A stretch of DNA of 64,000 nt, taken from positions 76,818,001 through 76,882,000 of the forward strand of contig OX597817.1 of the NCBI GenBank assembly GCA_951406725.2, given 5' to 3'. The position numbers and the translations under genes were made by a program. Below are positions 9,008 through 62,727 of the stretch, one piece after another (within the stretch, counting starts at the first letter, position 1; each line of letters begins with the position of its first letter). The notes under the pieces were generated by a model, which worked only from the letters and a program-made list of their open reading frames with translations, did no database searches and was not told the origin of the DNA. The DNA comes from Octopus vulgaris. Taxonomy: Eukaryota.

Positions 9008-9343
9008 GGAAATACCAAGCCCTGGAAATAGAGGTAAAATACAAAGACATGGAAACGGAGATAACTCGAATGTGGAGTCTAAAAAAGGAAACAATTCCTA
9101 TCATAGAAAGCGCATTAGGTGTGATAAAAAATATTCAGGCAAATACATAACAAAAGCACCAGGGCTAACAAGTATATATAACATACAGAAAGTAGTACTA
9201 CTAGGCACAGGACACACATCCTACGTGGAACACTTTCAGTACATTAAAAATAACAGCATCACAGCAAACCACAGCATATACCCAAGGCACACAGAGCTGC
9301 GTTCGGTAGAACAGTGAAAGCATATGATAGAAATAAGACTACG
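9008..9343 (+). mobile_element. 5'-truncated R4/Dong-like LINE 3' end inserted in (AAT)n
   Basis: KYKDMETEITRMWSLKKETIPII..ALG..., with a 3'UTR closely matching 28620-28714. AAT repeats on both sides. Confidence 0.9.
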
Positions 9344-9431
<88 letters not shown>

Positions 9432-9458
9432 GTAATAATAATAATCTATATGTGTGTA

Positions 9459-26210: not shown

Positions 26211-28761
<2,551 letters not shown>

Positions 28762-28861
28762 TAATAATAATAATAACAACAACAACAACAACAACAACAA
28801 TAACAATAATAATAACAATTATAATAACAATAATAACAATAATAATAACAATAATAATAAC

Positions 28862-32670: not shown

Positions 32671-33520
32671 TGTGCATATATACATTCATACACATACATA
32701 CGTGCACGCACACGCACGCGCACACACATATATCTCTTTACACACACAAACAAAAGCAGTACCTATCTTTATTCATGTGTGCGTGTTCATATTAATTATC
32801 TTCTGCAGTTCTCCATTTTTATTTAATATTCATCTTATATTCAACAAAAGCATTAAAAAAACAATGATGTTAATTTTTTTTTTCTTCTTTTTGCAATTTG
32901 TCTTCAGATAATGATGAGTCTGTTAACAATTATATCCGAATACATACTTACCCACCTACATGCGTGGATGATCCACATATATACATTTTATTGTGTGCTA
33001 GCAGTTGTACAAAGATTTTGAAGCTGCTAATGCATCGATTCTGCGATCCGGGTTTGATTTCAGGTTGAGCTGTTTTATTTCATTTATCTTAACACTCTAC
33101 CTGAAGAACAAATTTTCAGTGGTGACTCCCTTGACGCTTTTTTTTTTTTTACAAATTACAAAGTTAGAGACAGATTCGTTCTATAAGAATAATCCAATAG
33201 TATATAGAGGTGCGCATGTGAATATGCTTAGAGAGTATTTCTTATAGATGCCAAATGTATATACGTTAACGAATCATGAGATCGCGTTTCTTTTGTGACA
33301 TCATACGGTTTATTAGTCAAGTTGTGTTGCCTTTTACGCTTTCTACATCTATTCTGTCTCTTAGAATTACAGAAGAAGATAAAGATTAGTCGTAAAGACT
33401 GTATCATATGAAAATAATAAAACGATGCATGGAGGTGTGCATTTTAATACGTTCAGAATGAATTAGCACTAGAAGGATTGAGTGCGTTATATGACGCACT
33501 TTGAAATCTTAATTACACAC

Positions 33521-33692
33521 AGGCATAGGAGTGGCTGTGTGGTAAGTAGCTTGCTTACCAACCACGTGGTTCCGGGTTCAGTGCCACTGCGTGGCACCTT
33601 GAGCAAGTGTCTTCTACTATAATCTCCGGTCGACCAAAGCCTTGTGAGTGGATTTGGTAGACGGAAACTGAAAGAAGCCCATCGTATATATG

Positions 33693-33740
<48 letters not shown>

Positions 33741-33927
33741 AACATCGCTTGACAACCGATGCTGGTGTGTTTACGCCCCCGTAACTTAGCGGTTCGGCAA
33801 AAGAGACCGATAGAATAAGTACTAGGCTTACAAAGAATAAGTCCTGGGGTCGATTTGCTCGACTAAAGGCGGTGCTCCAGCATGGCCACGGTCACATGAC
33901 TGAAACAAGTAAAAGAGTAAAAGAGTA
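33521..33927 (+). mobile_element. SINE family A, full-length copy
   Basis: A-box tggctgtgtgg, B-box ggttcagtgcc, caccttgagcaagtgtctt, internal (TA)/(TG) microsatellite, (GTAAAAGA)n tail. About ten homologous copies occur in the window. Confidence 0.9.
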
Positions 33928-34477
33928 ATTCAAAAACAATTGTAGATTTTGACATCATGTTGCTTGGATTTTCATAGTTTTATGATATGTATATACACTA
34001 TGGATTATAGGTTGTTTGCACCACCCAAAAAAACAAATTACATACTACCTATAAGGACCACATGCGTCAATTGATGCATTGATAAATTCTGAAACTTGCA
34101 CCTGCTTTTGTTTATGAGTACATGTGATAAGGTTTTAAATATTCAGTAATTGCACAGCCTTTACAGCTCACAAAACAAAACAGCAGAACAGAAGGGAGTT
34201 ACCAGAAGTAGTAAAGCAGGTGAAACCAGTTCACGAAATTGGTTTTGAAATCCACAGAGAAGCCAACTGTCACACATCGTACCTATGCAAAAAATCAAAA
34301 TCTGTTGTCGTTTTGAGTAGTTTACATCAAAAGAGAAAAACAGAAACTGGTTTACTTGTGAATGCATCAAAGTAAATATATAACTAATGGATAGTTAAAT
34401 GTTTCATAAGTAATGGTTTACTTTGGCAGAATTATCTTGTATGAGAATATATGAAGGATGCATCATAAACGATACAA

Positions 34478-36863: not shown

Positions 36864-37844
36864 CTTTTGTGTTCTGTTTTTTTTTATTTCATTTGATACA
36901 TATATATATATGTGTGTGTGTGCACGTGTGTATGTATGTGTGTGTATTTACGTACGTATGTAAGTATGTGCGTACTTATGTATGCGTACATATATTATAT
37001 ACACACATACGTACATACATACACACACACATATGAAGACCAACTAATGGAAAATAGAGAGTTGTACTTCATTAAAATCTATTTAATTAAAATCATTTTC
37101 TTTATATTAAATCCCGACACGTGTTTTCGCTGAATAAATGTCTTAGCTTCCTTTGTTGTGATAGTTTTTGATTTCTATTGAATTAATTGTAGACCAAATT
37201 CTTATCCAAAGGTTGACAATCTTACACAAATTTACATCAATGTGTTTTTTGCATCCTGCAAGACGAAGCAAACTCAAGAATTCTGATACGAAATATAAAT
37301 TCCTGAAATCTCCTTGGTGTGGGAATATAAGAGATTAGGACAACAGACAATGGAAATAGTAATGAGATATGGTATGCCCAGATATCTAGCTATATTTAAA
37401 CTCAGAATGACCCATTGGAAACTGAGTAGATTACTATACTGTTATTTATAGTAGTAGCAGCCTTATTCAGGTCAAGATGAATTAGTATTGCTGATCGATC
37501 ATGCTTAAAACAATATAAATATATATTCTTGTATATATATAAACCAATATGATTCTTAATATATATATATGTAAAACAATATATTCTCCCAAAAAGGGGA
37601 GAAGCTAATATTGTCGTCATTGGGCAACGGCGTGTACCCATATTAAAAGCATTCAAACCTTAGAATGTTCTTATTTATTGAATCAAATACAACTCTAATA
37701 GAAGTATGTATATTAGCTGAATTTTTAAATTAGTGCTTCTAAATTAAACTCATGTTAAATTAATTTGAGAATATTTGATTAGCGTTACGTATGCCACCCA
37801 TTTTTCTAAGTAAATTCATACTGAAAATATTTACCAGGGAATTA

Positions 37845-38290
37845 TTTAAGTGTTTTTATATATGGATTCAAGCATTTTATTGTTAATTCATTTCCATAGT
37901 CTAATAACTTATATTTGGAGATAAGGATAAGGAGTGTTTCTTTAAGGCAAATATTGCATTTACTATTACTACCAATATAGTGTGAAGCACTTATAATAAT
38001 TGACCATTTAATATCATATTTAGTATTCTTATCGTTTAAAGTTCAAATGTGGTTACATAAAATTGTATAATTATTTTTTCTCTATTTCTGAAAGAAGAAA
38101 GGTAATTATTTGATATGTTTTTAAAGTCCGTACCGTAGAGCAAGTCAAGAAAGTATGTAACAGCGTGCAATACCATAAGCTGTTACCGTGCATTTATATA
38201 CTAAATTATTTTCAAGATATTTATTCTCAATTGGACATTGGAAATTGTTGCTACAATTACGAAGAAGTTTTATCCGTAACATTATATTCA
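37845..38290 (-). pseudogene. Penelope-like GIY-YIG endonuclease remnant
   Basis: Minus strand NCSNNFQCPIENKYLENNLVYKCTVT...YI; FKNISNNYLSSFRNR; YDIKWSII..ASHY..SKCNICLKE...ELTIKC. Confidence 0.75.
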
Positions 38291-38294
38291 TTAG

Positions 38295-38880
38295 GCTCAA
38301 GGTAGCTTATCTCGCGTTCTCCGGGACCTTATTCGCTCCACATTGTAATATACAATCAATTGTGATAGGTCGTTTCATCATTTGTGATTGATCTTTTCAA
38401 AAATGTATTATTTTTCTTGCTTTTCAACAGAGAATAGCAGATAGAAATGCAGTTCATTAATTTTCTTCCGGTAAGTTATGAAGCAACAAAACATCATCGT
38501 GATTCACGTATCCAAGTGTTTTTAAATACTTTATAGCATTTTATGAGATACGTGAAGTATCTTGGCAATGTCTCATGCCATGTGACCGGAATTAATTTGA
38601 ATGAGTGCTTCTAATTAGTCGTCATCAATGACTGTAGGCCTACAGGAATGTTCCCATCCTCACAGCCTTCCAGATCAAAAGTTTCATTCTTAAACCTAGA
38701 AAACTACTTACGAACAAGCCTCTCAGCCGTGGTACAATCTCCATAAGCTGGACATATTTTTTCGATGTTTAAGACCACCGAATGACGAACGTGTATATTA
38801 TCATTTCCATTTCAACTATAAAATTAAACTATCAGCACAATAATCGTACAGAAAGTCTCAGTGAAATGTTATCTTTCTGA
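38295..38880 (-). pseudogene. Degenerate mariner transposase, N-terminal half
   Basis: Minus strand ICPAYGD...RFKNETFDLE...RPTVIDDD...DIAKILHVSH...LKTLGYV...ISICYSLLK...FLKRSITNDE...IVYYNVERIRS. Confidence 0.75.
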
Positions 38881-39174
38881 AAATATATATGCCTATACCT
38901 TCTTAAAAATATATCTTCTTTCTCGTTTCATGAGACTGGGAGTTCAATAAAGCTTCCCACTATTATAATGAAGTACTTCCTATGAGTCATGTTACGGATA
39001 ACATCTTTTACAGCTATAAATACACAAGATAAAATTTACTAATGTACTATAAAAACAGATGAACGCTCTATGAATTAACTGATTTTGATTTAAGCAAAAG
39101 TCCCGTTTCCGTATAGGCTAAGATACTGCTTGAATTAAATTTTTCTTCTTTTCCCGCATAATATTCGATATATT

Positions 39175-39242
<68 letters not shown>

Positions 39243-39439
39243 CATATACATATACGAGGGGCGTTCAATAAGTAATGCCCCTGACACACTTCCCATAGTA
39301 GTAGAGCAACGAAACTTGGCACAGTTATTAGTCATTTTCTACATAGGAACCACCCAGAGTTACGCATTTCTCTCATCGTTTGATGCAGCTCTGGAGACCG
39401 TTTTTGTAGAAGACCCCAGCTTGGTCTTCTAACCACGAC

Positions 39440-40361
39440 GTGACTTCAGAGTGTCGAGCAGTGATCCGGTTTTTGTATTTGAAAGGACGCACACCACGGG
39501 AGACTTTTGATGAAATGAAAGTAACTTATGGTGATGATGCCCCATCATATGACCTTGTAAAACGCTGGCTTCGTGAATTCAAACATGGTCAGAACTCTGT
39601 GGAAACAGCTCCCAGATCTGGTCGCCCCCCTTCTGCCATTGATGAGGTATCTGTCCGTTAAGTTGAGGCTGCCATTTTGGAAGATCGACGCATAACTATT
39701 CGCCAAATAGCCCATGAGGTCAAGATTAGTACCGGGTCTGTGGGAACTATCATTCATGACCATTTGCATATGCAAAAGGTGTCTGCCAGATGGATTCCCA
39801 GGTTGCTCACACCTTTCCAGAAGCAAGAACGCGTCGAGTGCTCGAGGGTGAATTTGGAGATGTGCCAAGAAGATGAGTCTAAATTTTTCAAAAGACTGAT
39901 TACACAGGATGAAACCTGGATTCATCACTATGATCCAGAGACCAAACCCCAGTCAATGCAGTGGAAGCACCGTGACTCACCTCCTCCAAAGAAGGCAAGG
40001 GTGCAGCCCTCCGCTGGCAAGATCATGCTCACAGTCTCCTGGGAGCAGGACGGAGTAGTGATGACAGATTTCCTGGCAAAGGGTACCACAATTACAGGAG
40101 CCTATTATGCTTCACTTTTGAGGAAATTAAGAGAAGCTATCAAAATCAAGAGGTGGGGCAAGATCAGCAAAGGCATCCTCCTCCTGCAAGACAACGCTCC
40201 GGTCCACAACTCGCGTGTCGCCAGATCAGAAACACAGGCGTGCGGCTATGAACTCCTCCCCATCCCCCTACTCTCCTGACCTTGCACCCTCTAATGTTCA
40301 CCTCTTCCCAGCCATGAAGTTGTTTTTGAAAGGAAAGCGTTTCCCAGATGATGCAGCTTTG
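39440..40361 (+). pseudogene. Mariner transposase pseudogene
   Basis: HTH region, RSGRP, RWIPRLLT, ITQDETWIHHYDPE, LLQDNAPVH, YSPDLAPSN (third catalytic D changed to N). Stop at 39659-39661, frameshift near 40260, C-terminus replaced. Confidence 0.93.
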
Positions 40362-40600
40362 AAGTCCGTACCGTAGAGCAAGTCAAGAAAGTATGTAACA
40401 GCGTGCAATACCATAAGCTGTTACCGTGCATTTATATACTAAATTATTTTCAAGATATTTATTCTCAATTGGACATTGGAAATTGTTGCTACAATTACGA
40501 AGAAGTTTTATCCGTAACATTATATTCATTAGGCTCAAGGTAGCTTATCTCGCGTTCTCCAGGACCTTATTCGCTCCACATTGTAATATACAATCAATTG
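40362..40600 (+). repeat. 239 bp direct duplicate of 38124-38362
   Basis: Identical apart from one substitution (ccgggacc vs ccaggacc). Confidence 0.97.
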
Positions 40601-40732
40601 GCACATCTCCAAATTCATCCTCGAGCACTCGACGCGTTCTTGCTTCTGGAAAGGTGTGAGCAACCTGGGAATCCATCTGGCAGACACCTTTTGCATATGC
40701 AAATGGTCATGAATGATAGTTTCCACGGACCC
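40598..40732 (-). repeat. 135 bp inverted duplicate of transposase segment 39734-39868
   Basis: Reverse complement matches with three substitutions. Confidence 0.97.
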
Positions 40733-40759
40733 TTATTGAACGCCCCTCGTATATATATT

Positions 40760-45411: not shown

Positions 45412-46678
45412 TTCAGTCAAAAATTATCTGCATTTTCGCCAAAACCTTCTTTGGCTTGGCTACATTGCCTTCAATACTCAAGCGGTAAAAGATAGTACTT
45501 TTGTGGTTACGCAACCGAGGTTTGATGTTGATCACTCCAGTTTTCTTTCTTCTGTTATCGAGTAAACATGGCTGCTCCGGTAGCAATGGAAGAACAGAAG
45601 TCACTCATCCAATTTCTCTGGTATGAATGTGTATCAGGGGCTGAGATTCATTGCAGGCTTTCAGTACAAATCGGAGACTCACTTGACCGCGTAGAAGTGT
45701 CCATGAGTGAATCGACAATTCTAAAAATGACCGGACAAGTGCAATGATCGAAGAGGGAGCAGGACGATTATCAACCTCCACTACTGATGCGAAGATTCAA
45801 CAAACTTGAGAGATGGTTCTGGTGAACCGACGCGTGACCATTGATTACATGGCATGTTCTCTGCAAATTAATCATGGTTTCACACACGAAATCATCCGCG
45901 ACAAGTTTCGCTTCCGTAAAGTTTGTGAGAAATGGATGCCAAGATAGCTTATCGAATCGGATAAGCAGAACCGTGTAATCTGTCAACACTTACTCGACCG
46001 CTACAAGGATTAAAGGTAAAGCTTTTTTGGAGAGAATAATCACAGGGTCCATCACGTTGAATCAGAATCCAAGAGGCAGTGTATGCAGTGGAAACTCCCG
46101 GGATCGCCAGCGAAAAAGAAATTGAAGAAACCTTCAGCAGAAAAAGTGATGCTAATCGTGTTTTGGGACACAAAAAGGCCTATACTGGAACATTGCCGAG
46201 AAAATGGGTTTACAATTAGCATAAACTACAGTGAAATGCTGGCCAACAAACCGATATCAGCAATTCGCACCAAACGCTGAAGTCTATTGTGAAATCAAGA
46301 GTTATTATTGTACGACAATGCCTGTCCACATACGGCCGCCCACACCGTTGAAACCATTGAAAAATTGGATCCCGGATTGCCAGAACACCTGCTTACTGTT
46401 CAGTTCTCGTTTTTTTCCGACTATCACTTCTTTGGACCGCTTAAACATCGTTTACGAGATCGTCGATTTGCTACGGATGAAGAAGTGCAAGAAGGGCTGC
46501 ATAAATGACTGCGCAACAAGCCGAAATGCTTCTTCTATGATGGAATGAGCAAACTTGTTGATCGCTGGAAGAAGTGCATCGAAAAACAAGGACACTATGT
46601 TGAAAAATGATGTAAGTGTTCGATCCCTGCTTTTGCGTTAATAAATTCCAGAAACAATAGAGCGTATAATTTTTGACG
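45412..46678 (+). mobile_element. Degenerate mariner element with transposase pseudogene (~45580-46610)
   Basis: NRRVTID, RKVCEKWMPR, SKRQCMQWK.PGSP, KVMLIVFWD, YDNACPH, SDYHFFGPLK, LVDRWKKCIEKQGHYVEK*. TIR remnants gtcaaaaattatctgc and gcgtataatttttgac. Confidence 0.88.
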
Positions 46679-59055: not shown

Positions 59056-59471
59056 ACTCTTTACTCTTTTACTCTTTTACTTGTTTCAGTCATTTGACTG
59101 CGGCCATGCTGCACCCCCGCCTTTAATCGAGCAAATCAACCCCAGGATTTATTCTTTGTAAGCCTAGTACTTATTATATCGGTCTCTTTTGCCGAGACGC
59201 TAGTTTAAGGGGACGTAAACACACCAGCATCGGTTGTCTAGCGTTATTGGGGGGACAAACACGGACACAGAAACACACAAGTATATATATATAAATATAC
59301 TTACATACGACGGGCTTCTTTCAGTTTCCGTCTACCAAATCCACTCACAAGGCTTTGGTCGGCCCGAGGCTATAGTAGAAGACAATTGTCCAAGGTGCCA
59401 CGCAGTGGGACTGAACCCGGAACCATGTGGCTGGTAAGCAAGCTACTTACCACACAGTCACTCCTGCGCCT
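59056..59471 (-). mobile_element. SINE family A, full-length copy
   Basis: Reverse complement of 33521-33927, including head and (GTAAAAGA)n tail. Confidence 0.9.
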
Positions 59472-59755
59472 GTATGTATGTATCTCTCTCTCTCTCTTTC
59501 TCTATCTGTCTGTCTATCTATCTATCTAGCTATGAACTCATTAGCGTTAATGGCCATCGAACAGCTGGGCGAGAGATGCCCCTAGTCTTTGTTTAGAAGG
59601 AAATTCTGAAATAACAGCCACCTAATTGCAAAACCGGAGATCTTGCTTTTGCATGTTTGTTGTTTATTTAGCCAACTATGTAACAATCTTAGAAATTTTG
59701 AATTTTAGCACAGGTATTGCTGACAACCATTGTCTTTAATATCTAGGATACGATA

Positions 59756-62295: not shown

Positions 62296-62324
62296 CAGAG
62301 ATTTATTATTGCTATATATATTCT

Positions 62325-62727
62325 GTTATTATTTTACGTGTTTCAATCATTTGACTACGGCCTTGCTGGAGCATCGCCTTAAAGAGTTTTAGACGAAACC
62401 AGGATTTATTCTTTGTAAGCCTAGCACTTATTCTATAAATCTTGTTTGCCAATCCACTAAGTTACGGACATGTAAACATACCAACATTTGTTATCAAGTG
62501 ATGCTAGGAGACGAACGCAAACACACATACACGAATACATACATGCATACACATACACACACACATATATATATATATTTCAGTTTCTGTCTACCAAATC
62601 CACTCACAAGGCTTTGGTCGACCCGAGGCTATCGTAGAAGAAACTTGCCCAAGGTGCAATGCAGTGGGACTGAACTTGGAATCTGGTGGCTGGAAGCAAG
62701 CTTCTTACCACAAAACCATGCCAGCCC
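62325..62727 (-). mobile_element. SINE family A, near full length, diverged
   Basis: tctaccaaatccactcacaaggctttggtcgacccgaggctat...gcagtgggactgaac. Confidence 0.85.

What the first reader, a model, noticed from the sequence alone, without database searches (positions are those of the whole stretch)
39255..40749. Mariner whose right arm was rebuilt by serial template switching (captured neighbour DNA + inverted self-copy + restored TIR)
Seen: after ...PDDAAL the transposase breaks off. It is followed by a 239 bp copy of 38124-38362 (1 mismatch), then a 135 bp inverted copy of its own 39734-39868 (3 mismatches), then 18 bp of TIR and TA. The second junction shares TTG between both templates. 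The donor segment spans the border of two unrelated fossils (a PLE GIY-YIG remnant and another mariner), so it was probably copied from this locus and is not a dispersed repeat. Known: abortive gap repair after DNA-transposon excision produces such filler DNA. Inferred: a non-autonomous derivative that could carry captured local DNA in trans.
Basis: partly seen in the sequence, partly recalled or inferred. Interest (0 to 1): 0.72.

Follow-up and report, generated by a model that had tools for sequence, protein, structure and literature searches.

The report
Repair scar inside a mariner transposon
A dead jumping gene has one arm flipped to the wrong end and holds a 239-letter copy of nearby DNA; it has not spread, and it is likely a scar from patching a DNA break inside the element, a kind of event already described in animal genomes.

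Summary
But the anatomy is incomplete. Against the family consensus, the left end (39255-39450) is the element's 3' arm, inverted, and it resumes two bases after the point where the transposase breaks off (consensus 1095 / 1098). So there are four junctions, each with 1-3 bp microhomology, and the 5' arm is gone. The junctions and the donor occur once in the 2.8 Gb assembly, so the chimera has not transposed. One of four public runs has a contig across junctions 1 and 2. The capture is younger than the insertion (1 mismatch against about 10 expected). The 'self-copy' shares none of the core's two private changes, so its source is open. Best reading: a break inside a long-resident copy, repaired by microhomology-guided template switching. 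This works like the single-copy Pack-TIRs and complex templated insertions already described. Repair after excision and mobility in trans are not supported. It is real and neatly resolved, but ordinary in kind.

The parts
39253..39254 (.). left TA target-site duplication, at the end of a (TA)n-rich tract
39255..39450 (-). family 3' (right) arm, consensus 1293>1098: right TIR (39255-39291) plus the last ~39 codons of the transposase; 6 substitutions in 196 bp
39449..40362 (+). transposase core, consensus 180>1095; no start codon, stop at 39659-39661, two 1 bp deletions near 40258 and 40264; 19 substitutions in 914 bp; HTH_48 and Transposase_1 hits
40362..40600 (+). captured 239 bp copy of 38124-38362, 1 mismatch at 40561; junction 1 has 1 bp exact microhomology (imperfect over 4 bp), junction 2 has TTG
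40598..40732 (-). internal mariner piece, consensus 599>465; same orientation as the 3' arm; 1 change from consensus, 3 from the core
40732..40749 (.). 18 bp TIR stub (junction 3, 1 bp microhomology); carries the right-TIR-type base at position 7
40750..40751 (.). right TA target-site duplication
38124..38362 (+). donor of the captured DNA, 2238 bp upstream of its copy; effectively single copy
37000..38293 (-). old repeat fossil (59-70% to relatives); PLE GIY-YIG-like by recalled motifs, tool support weak; left limit is the edge of the stretch examined
38299..38900 (-). old mariner fossil of another family (63-74% to relatives)

Best explanation
This is a single-copy, broken mariner whose 3' arm sits inverted at its left end and which holds a 239 bp copy of DNA from 2.2 kb away; it likely arose when a break inside the long-resident element was patched by microhomology-guided template switching, without excision. 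Shown: the order of pieces (3' arm 1293>1098, core 180>1095, donor copy, 599>465, TIR stub), four junctions with 1-3 bp microhomology, single copy, capture younger than insertion. Inferred steps: (1) the element originally lay on the minus strand, because the 3' arm, the 599>465 piece and the stub then all keep their order and orientation (about 70%); (2) it broke at consensus 1096-1097; (3) the arm-side end primed at 180 on the opposite strand and copied to the broken end at 1095, or the 180-1095 fragment was cut out and re-joined flipped (these two cannot be told apart); (4) the free end primed at 38124, copied 239 nt and joined at TTG to consensus 599; (5) bases 19-464 were lost in the same event, or later as a deletion trimming the inverted repeat the event would have left. 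The product is predicted to be immobile and neutral.
For: All 29 other copies fetched first have the normal order, and the window's left end maps to their right arm. The two halves abut with 2 bp lost; two independent breakpoints would fall that close about 0.5% of the time (arithmetic). Microhomology at all four junctions, P about 0.013. Donor single copy and 2.2 kb away. Junctions 0, 1, 3 found once each, while 22-mers inside the family are found 616 and 1058 times. The element is of ordinary age (25 of 1110 changes, 2.25%; 23 unbiased same-subfamily copies average 2.55%), yet donor and copy differ at 1 site against 9.8 expected if capture dated from insertion (P 0.0006; 0.003 using run X2's version). 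A one-event cis model fits at about 0.3 of the element's age (range 0.1-0.7; fit p 0.26-0.49). Tan et al. 2021 (PMC8277862, section 8 read) report the same profile for single-copy Pack-TIRs: nearby parent, median 2 bp microhomology, capture after insertion, internal breakpoints.
Against: The 599>465 piece shares 0 of the core's 2 private changes and has 1 of its own; a model with a separate template for it fits 4-7.5 times better before priors, and 3 of 17 other copies with that change match it over all 135 bp. The stub has G at position 7, found in 3 of 24 left TIRs of the closest subgroup but 20 of 21 right TIRs, which argues against it being the original left TIR left in place. Junctions 0 and 3 were not seen in reads. 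The unrearranged allele was not observed. Six of 106 sampled copies keep a stop-free frame of 348-354 codons, so late excision is not excluded. The mutation rates behind the dating come from copies chosen for similarity.
Confidence: 0.55

Rival explanations
1. Two-step or two-copy origin. First an early event made a long inverted repeat (the 5' arm replaced by a copy of the 3' arm, or a second copy inserted in opposite orientation). Much later a break at the inner end of that repeat was filled with the neighbouring DNA. The 599>465 piece is then not a copy of this core but comes from another copy, in place or in trans.
For: Explains why core and inverted piece share no private changes while the donor pair is young (likelihood ratio 4.6-10.8, Bayes factor 4-7.5). 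Explains the right-type stub (3 of 24 against 20 of 21). Arm replacement occurs in this family (1 of 110 copies, L056) and in other mariners (PMC4161770; PMC4678618 reports a 221 bp 3' part replacing the 5' part). Three other copies match the piece exactly.
Against: Needs more events. The 1095/1098 abutment needs a separate cause. Core, arm and piece all fit the same subfamily (0 of 12 and 0 of 14 alleles of the two other subfamilies in core and arm), which was 23 of 60 unbiased copies. The one-event model is not rejected (fit p 0.26-0.49; binomial p 0.16). No intermediate with junction 0 exists elsewhere in the assembly.
Confidence: 0.25
2. Abortive gap repair after transposase excision. The whole element was cut out, and re-synthesis from the sister chromatid switched templates four times before the ends were joined.
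For: Both termini and both TA sites are kept. Microhomology at all junctions. Six of 106 sampled copies have an open full-length frame. Invasion of the wrong TIR would explain the right-type stub. Abortive gap repair is the standard account of internal deletions (cited in PMC4161770; the original paper was not held).
Against: Does not predict that the two halves abut at 1095/1098, unless synthesis stalled on its own D-loop (speculative). Capture is well after the burst that spread the family. Tan et al. found most single-copy captures arise from internal breaks after insertion. Wallau et al. state that complex rearrangements are not easily explained by it.
Confidence: 0.17
3. Assembly chimera built from a high-copy repeat and nearby unique DNA.
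For: The family has at least 1674 copies and both flanks are microsatellites. Only 1 of 4 runs laid on the capture shows it. Junctions 0 and 3 are untested in reads.
Against: Run X2 has one 299 bp contig over 40338-40622 with a single difference. Its depth of 75 fits donor plus copy both at full dose (74.8-75.9 predicted if another contig at 45.7 is single copy). The copy differs from the donor, and each piece has its own changes.
Confidence: 0.03

Closest known systems
Single-copy Pack-TIRs made by transposition-independent gap filling (Tan et al. 2021, PMC8277862; abstract, passages, sections 8 and 14 read)
   Same: A TIR element holding a >100 bp near-identical copy of DNA from under 5 kb away; single copy; 1-3 bp microhomology; capture after insertion; internal breakpoints.
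   Different: Here the captured DNA is itself old transposon fossil, which their filter would exclude; the capture comes with a 914 bp inversion, loss of the 5' arm and four junctions, whereas their median gap was 4.6% of the element; nothing genic was captured.
Complex microhomology-mediated templated insertions and in-place inversions, MMBIR-like (Osia et al. 2021, PMC8421209; passages read)
   Same: Several consecutive switches to nearby templates, an inversion in place, short or imperfect microhomology at junctions, persistence as a germ-line variant.
   Different: Tracts here are 135-914 bp and lie in an invertebrate transposon; the enzymes are untested.
Mariner arm-replacement derivatives with long TIRs (Wallau et al. 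2014, PMC4161770; Filee et al. 2015, PMC4678618, Rpmar49 and Rpmar17; passages read)
   Same: A 3' arm of about 200 bp stands at the 5' end in inverted orientation.
   Different: Those keep the arm at both ends and have amplified. Here the arm is present once, the other end is an 18 bp stub, and there is one copy.
Mariner-like elements, DD34D (parent family)
   Same: 1293 bp, TA duplication, one 348-codon transposase with D158, D252, D287 (34 residues between the last two), Pfam Transposase_1 and HTH_48, Mos1 as best solved relative (E 2.5e-45).
   Different: This copy is broken and rearranged; the mariner subfamily was not determined.

Membership tests
Mariner (DD34D) - parent family | about 1.3 kb, short TIRs, TA duplication | tested here: met
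   1293 bp consensus, TIRs alike over 37 bp, TA at both ends
Mariner (DD34D) - parent family | single transposase with DD(34)D triad and Mos1-type HTH | tested here: met
   D158, D252, D287; PF01359 and PF17906 above cut-off; Mos1 E 2.5e-45
Complex microhomology-mediated templated insertion (MMBIR-like) | inserted DNA has identifiable nearby templates | tested here: met
   donor at 38124-38362, single copy; other pieces map to the consensus
Complex microhomology-mediated templated insertion (MMBIR-like) | microhomology at the junctions | tested here: met
   2, 1, 3, 1 bp; joint P about 0.013, though no single junction is significant (0.05-0.45)
Complex microhomology-mediated templated insertion (MMBIR-like) | all switches in one event | tested here: inconclusive
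   one-event model fits (p 0.26-0.49) but a separate template fits 4-7.5 times better
Complex microhomology-mediated templated insertion (MMBIR-like) | made by replicative repair enzymes | not testable with these tools
   no genetic test is possible on a fossil event
Single-copy Pack-TIR (Tan et al. 2021 criteria) | flanked by one TIR element with at least 10 bp of each terminus | tested here: met
   37 bp TIR and 18 bp stub
Single-copy Pack-TIR (Tan et al. 2021 criteria) | internal sequence 100-5000 bp with a unique parent at 90% or more and length ratio 80-120% | tested here: met
   239 bp, 99.6%, next hits 72-82% over parts
Single-copy Pack-TIR (Tan et al. 2021 criteria) | parent has no transposon within 100 bp (captured DNA is non-transposon) | tested here: not met
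   the donor lies across two old repeat fossils; so it works like a Pack-TIR but is not filed as one
Single-copy Pack-TIR (Tan et al. 2021 criteria) | orthologous element without the capture in an outgroup | not testable with these tools
   no related assembly is held; contigs break at the microsatellite flanks
Non-autonomous mobile derivative (MITE-like) | two or more copies with the same junctions at different sites | tested here: not met
   1 match each for junctions 0, 1, 3; donor found only in the window
Non-autonomous mobile derivative (MITE-like) | two complete TIRs | tested here: not met
   right end keeps 18 of about 37 bp; in Mos1, HTH1 contacts base 22 and near 26 (PMC4505599)
Long-TIR arm-replacement mariners (Rpmar49 type) | the same arm at both ends | tested here: not met
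   the 196 bp arm is present once
Penelope-like GIY-YIG element (left fossil under the donor) | GIY-YIG endonuclease domain | tested here: inconclusive
   no Pfam hit; Atlas lead 0.86 to a cluster 15% PF01541; motif match is recalled

The most novel reading that the evidence does not exclude
One germ-line repair event used three kinds of template in series - its own broken fragment copied to the very end, unique DNA 2 kb away, and another copy of the family elsewhere in the genome - and the product still segregates. The thousands of near-identical mariner copies in this genome would then be a natural record of template choice in microhomology-mediated repair, where run-off at the break is readable from abutting coordinates.
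Probability: 0.12. Interest if true: 0.45.

Novelty: new member of a known kind. Interest (0 to 1): 0.2.

Why it matters
Little as biology: it is one dead copy that captured only fossil repeat DNA and has not moved. Its value is as a base-resolved example of how breaks inside TIR transposons capture neighbouring DNA without transposition. The known consensus lets each switch be placed exactly, and complex mariner rearrangements were called unexplained in PMC4161770. It also shows that reading such an element without its consensus misplaces the arms.

Tried and rejected
1. Spread of the chimera: patterns for junction 3 (exact), junction 0 (1 mismatch) and junction 1 (2 mismatches), and a DNA search with the capture (10 of 10 candidates scored), found only the window. 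2. Junction 3 as an inherited deletion subfamily: rejected (exact match only). 3. Core from the other main subfamily because it has G at consensus 579 (616 against 1058 exact matches): rejected, it has 0 of 12 linked alleles. 4. A named trans donor for the inverted piece: 17 other copies carry its private change, none near the locus; 3 match all 135 bp but are about 5% from the window's core; inconclusive. 5. Transposase-made junctions (auto-integration): no TIR end or TA target at junctions 0-2. 6. Strong hairpins at the breakpoints: folding energies only -2 to -7 kcal/mol, no shuffle control run. 7. Raw-read support: 3 raw-read runs gave 2, 6 and 0 reads on a family of over a thousand copies, so no test. 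8. Presence or absence in other samples: X1 showed donor-path contigs only; X15 and X3 had no cover of the capture; holes prove nothing. 9. Pfam for the left fossil: nothing. 10. Rfam on 5 of 8 near-identical array loci: 0 matches. 11. Earlier findings near the locus and by words: none. 12. An extra short switch at junction 1 (the joined sequence also matches consensus 1100-1106) was noticed and not adopted: it needs one more event. 13. Rubin and Levy 1997 was not held.

Full report
Check of the observation. Direct comparison confirms each count: 40362-40600 equals 38124-38362 with one mismatch; 40598-40732 is the reverse complement of 39734-39868 with three; 40732-40749 is 18 bp of TIR followed by TA; TTG is shared at the second junction. 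The donor straddles two old repeat families, whose relatives stop at 38293 or start at about 38299. The right one is an old mariner (HTH_48 E 0.008, below cut-off). The PLE GIY-YIG label for the left one has only a weak tool lead and otherwise rests on recalled motifs.

The family. The window is G000:C4:76818001-76882000 in a 2.8 Gb assembly. Earlier notes on this genome call it an octopus; I did not test that. The element belongs to a young mariner family: 2622 first-look candidates, and 616 plus 1058 exact matches to two allelic 22-mers. A majority consensus from the 29 other top-ranked loci fetched (of 40 scored) is 1293 bp, with a 348-codon DD34D transposase, Pfam Transposase_1 and HTH_48 and Mos1 as best solved relative. 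Eight of those 29 loci are near-identical duplicates including flanks. A consensus from 60 copies of the window's own subfamily differs at only three positions.

Corrected anatomy. In consensus coordinates the window reads 1293>1098 (39255-39450), 180>1095 (39449-40362), donor copy, 599>465 (40598-40732), TIR stub. Only two bases (1096-1097) are missing between core and arm. The 5' arm with the start codon is gone. There are four junctions with 2, 1, 3 and 1 bp of microhomology. No single one is significant (P 0.05-0.45); jointly P is about 0.013 against random joins of the same templates. Read on the minus strand, the stub, the 599>465 piece and the 3' arm are in normal order and orientation, and it is the core that is flipped.

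Is it real, and has it moved? A search with the capture scored 10 of 10 candidates and found only the two window copies at high identity. Junction 0 (1 mismatch allowed), junction 1 (2 mismatches) and junction 3 (exact) each match once. Of four runs laid on 40338-40622, one (X2) has a single 299 bp contig over the whole stretch with one difference. It has at most 28 letters left of junction 1 and 32 right of junction 2, so junction 1 falls just under the tool's 31-letter rule for bridging. Its depth of 75 matches 74.8-75.9 predicted for donor plus copy at full dose, assuming another contig at 45.7 is single copy. I do not know whether X2 is independent of the assembly. X1 showed only contigs that follow the donor; X15 and X3 did not cover the capture; three raw-read runs gave no test. 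Junctions 0 and 3 are untested in reads. Among 110 family copies fetched (chosen as top hits or for holding a short exact word, so biased to intact ones), 90 are plain full-length, none shows a core inversion or a local capture, and one (L056) has 67 bp of the 5' end replacing the 3' end.

Timing. Core and arm carry 25 changes in 1110 bp (2.25%), ordinary for the subfamily (mean 2.55% in 23 unbiased copies). Donor and copy differ at one site against 9.8 expected had the capture dated from insertion (P 0.0006; 0.003 with X2's version). The capture therefore postdates the insertion, unless the two were later homogenised. The 599>465 piece shares neither of the core's two private changes and has one of its own. 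The core's G at 579 is common in another subfamily, but the core has 0 of 12 of that subfamily's linked alleles, so it is probably recurrent. A single cis event at about 0.3 of the element's age (0.1-0.7) fits acceptably (p 0.26-0.49). A separate template for that piece fits 4-7.5 times better before allowing that it needs the same subfamily (23 of 60 unbiased copies) and more events. Three of 17 other copies with the same change match the piece exactly. 'Self-copy' is thus unproven.

The stub. Its position 7 is G, as in 20 of 21 right TIRs but only 3 of 24 left TIRs of the closest subgroup. In Mos1 the linker binds bases 15-18 and HTH1 contacts base 22 and near 26 (PMC4505599, passages). By analogy an 18 bp end would bind poorly, in line with the single copy.

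Mechanism. Most likely (0.55) a break at 1096-1097 inside a resident copy, healed by serial microhomology-guided switching: arm end to 180, copy to the broken end at 1095 (or cut-and-flip of that fragment), switch to the donor, join to 599, with loss of 19-464 then or later. The abutment at 1095/1098 (chance about 0.5%) and the late date point to an internal break, not excision. Rivals: a two-step or two-copy history through a long inverted repeat (0.25), abortive gap repair after excision (0.17; six of 106 copies still have an open frame of 348-354 codons), and assembly error (0.03).

Comparison with what is known. Tan et al. 2021 (PMC8277862; abstract, passages and sections 8 and 14 read; supplements not seen) describe 370 Pack-TIRs in 100 animal genomes. 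Single-copy ones mostly capture nearby DNA through internal breaks after insertion, with a median 2 bp microhomology. This locus works like them but fails their filter, since the donor is itself transposon fossil. Osia et al. 2021 (PMC8421209, passages) describe complex templated insertions and in-place inversions as germ-line variants and note that replicative and cut-and-paste routes give the same inversion. Arm replacement in mariners is described in PMC4161770 and PMC4678618 (passages). PMC3814204 was seen as a search listing only. Rubin and Levy 1997 was not held and is cited through PMC4161770. Searches returned no paper on this locus or family; the library lacks most subscription journals.

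Verdict. New member of a known kind; interest 0.2.

Noticed in passing
L056:799-865 (G000:C1 near 58.08 Mb): A copy of the same family whose 3' end is replaced by an inverted copy of the first 67 bp, with about 11 bp overlap at the join: an arm replacement of the kind described in Drosophila mariners.
   Followed up: partly
L007, L009, L011, L013, L015, L017, L018, L024 (contigs C21, C35, C36, C44): Eight copies share flanks at 97-99.8%: one mariner inside a larger unit repeated on small contigs; no Rfam match in 5 of the 8.
   Followed up: partly
L002, L005, L023, L029, L030, L089: Six of 106 sampled copies keep a stop-free transposase frame of 348-354 codons.
   Followed up: no
family-wide (L043-L120): At least three subfamilies with linked alleles; one carries a deletion near consensus 991-1012 that removes the YSPDL motif and still spread (about 9 of 30 copies in one sample).
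   Followed up: partly
window 45723-46607: Another, older mariner-like copy, 32% amino-acid identity to the consensus transposase over 301 residues.
   Followed up: no
window 27895-28428: 178-codon open frame that looks like the C-terminal zinc-knuckle region of a LINE (recalled resemblance).
   Followed up: no
window 33514-33928, 59061-59478, 62319-62718; 9036-9444 and 28407-28815: Dispersed repeats at 77-89% identity within the window.
   Followed up: no
runs X21-X23: Three raw-read runs with the same species label as the best holder have almost no reads on this high-copy family, so the label may cover different organisms or reads were filtered.
   Followed up: no
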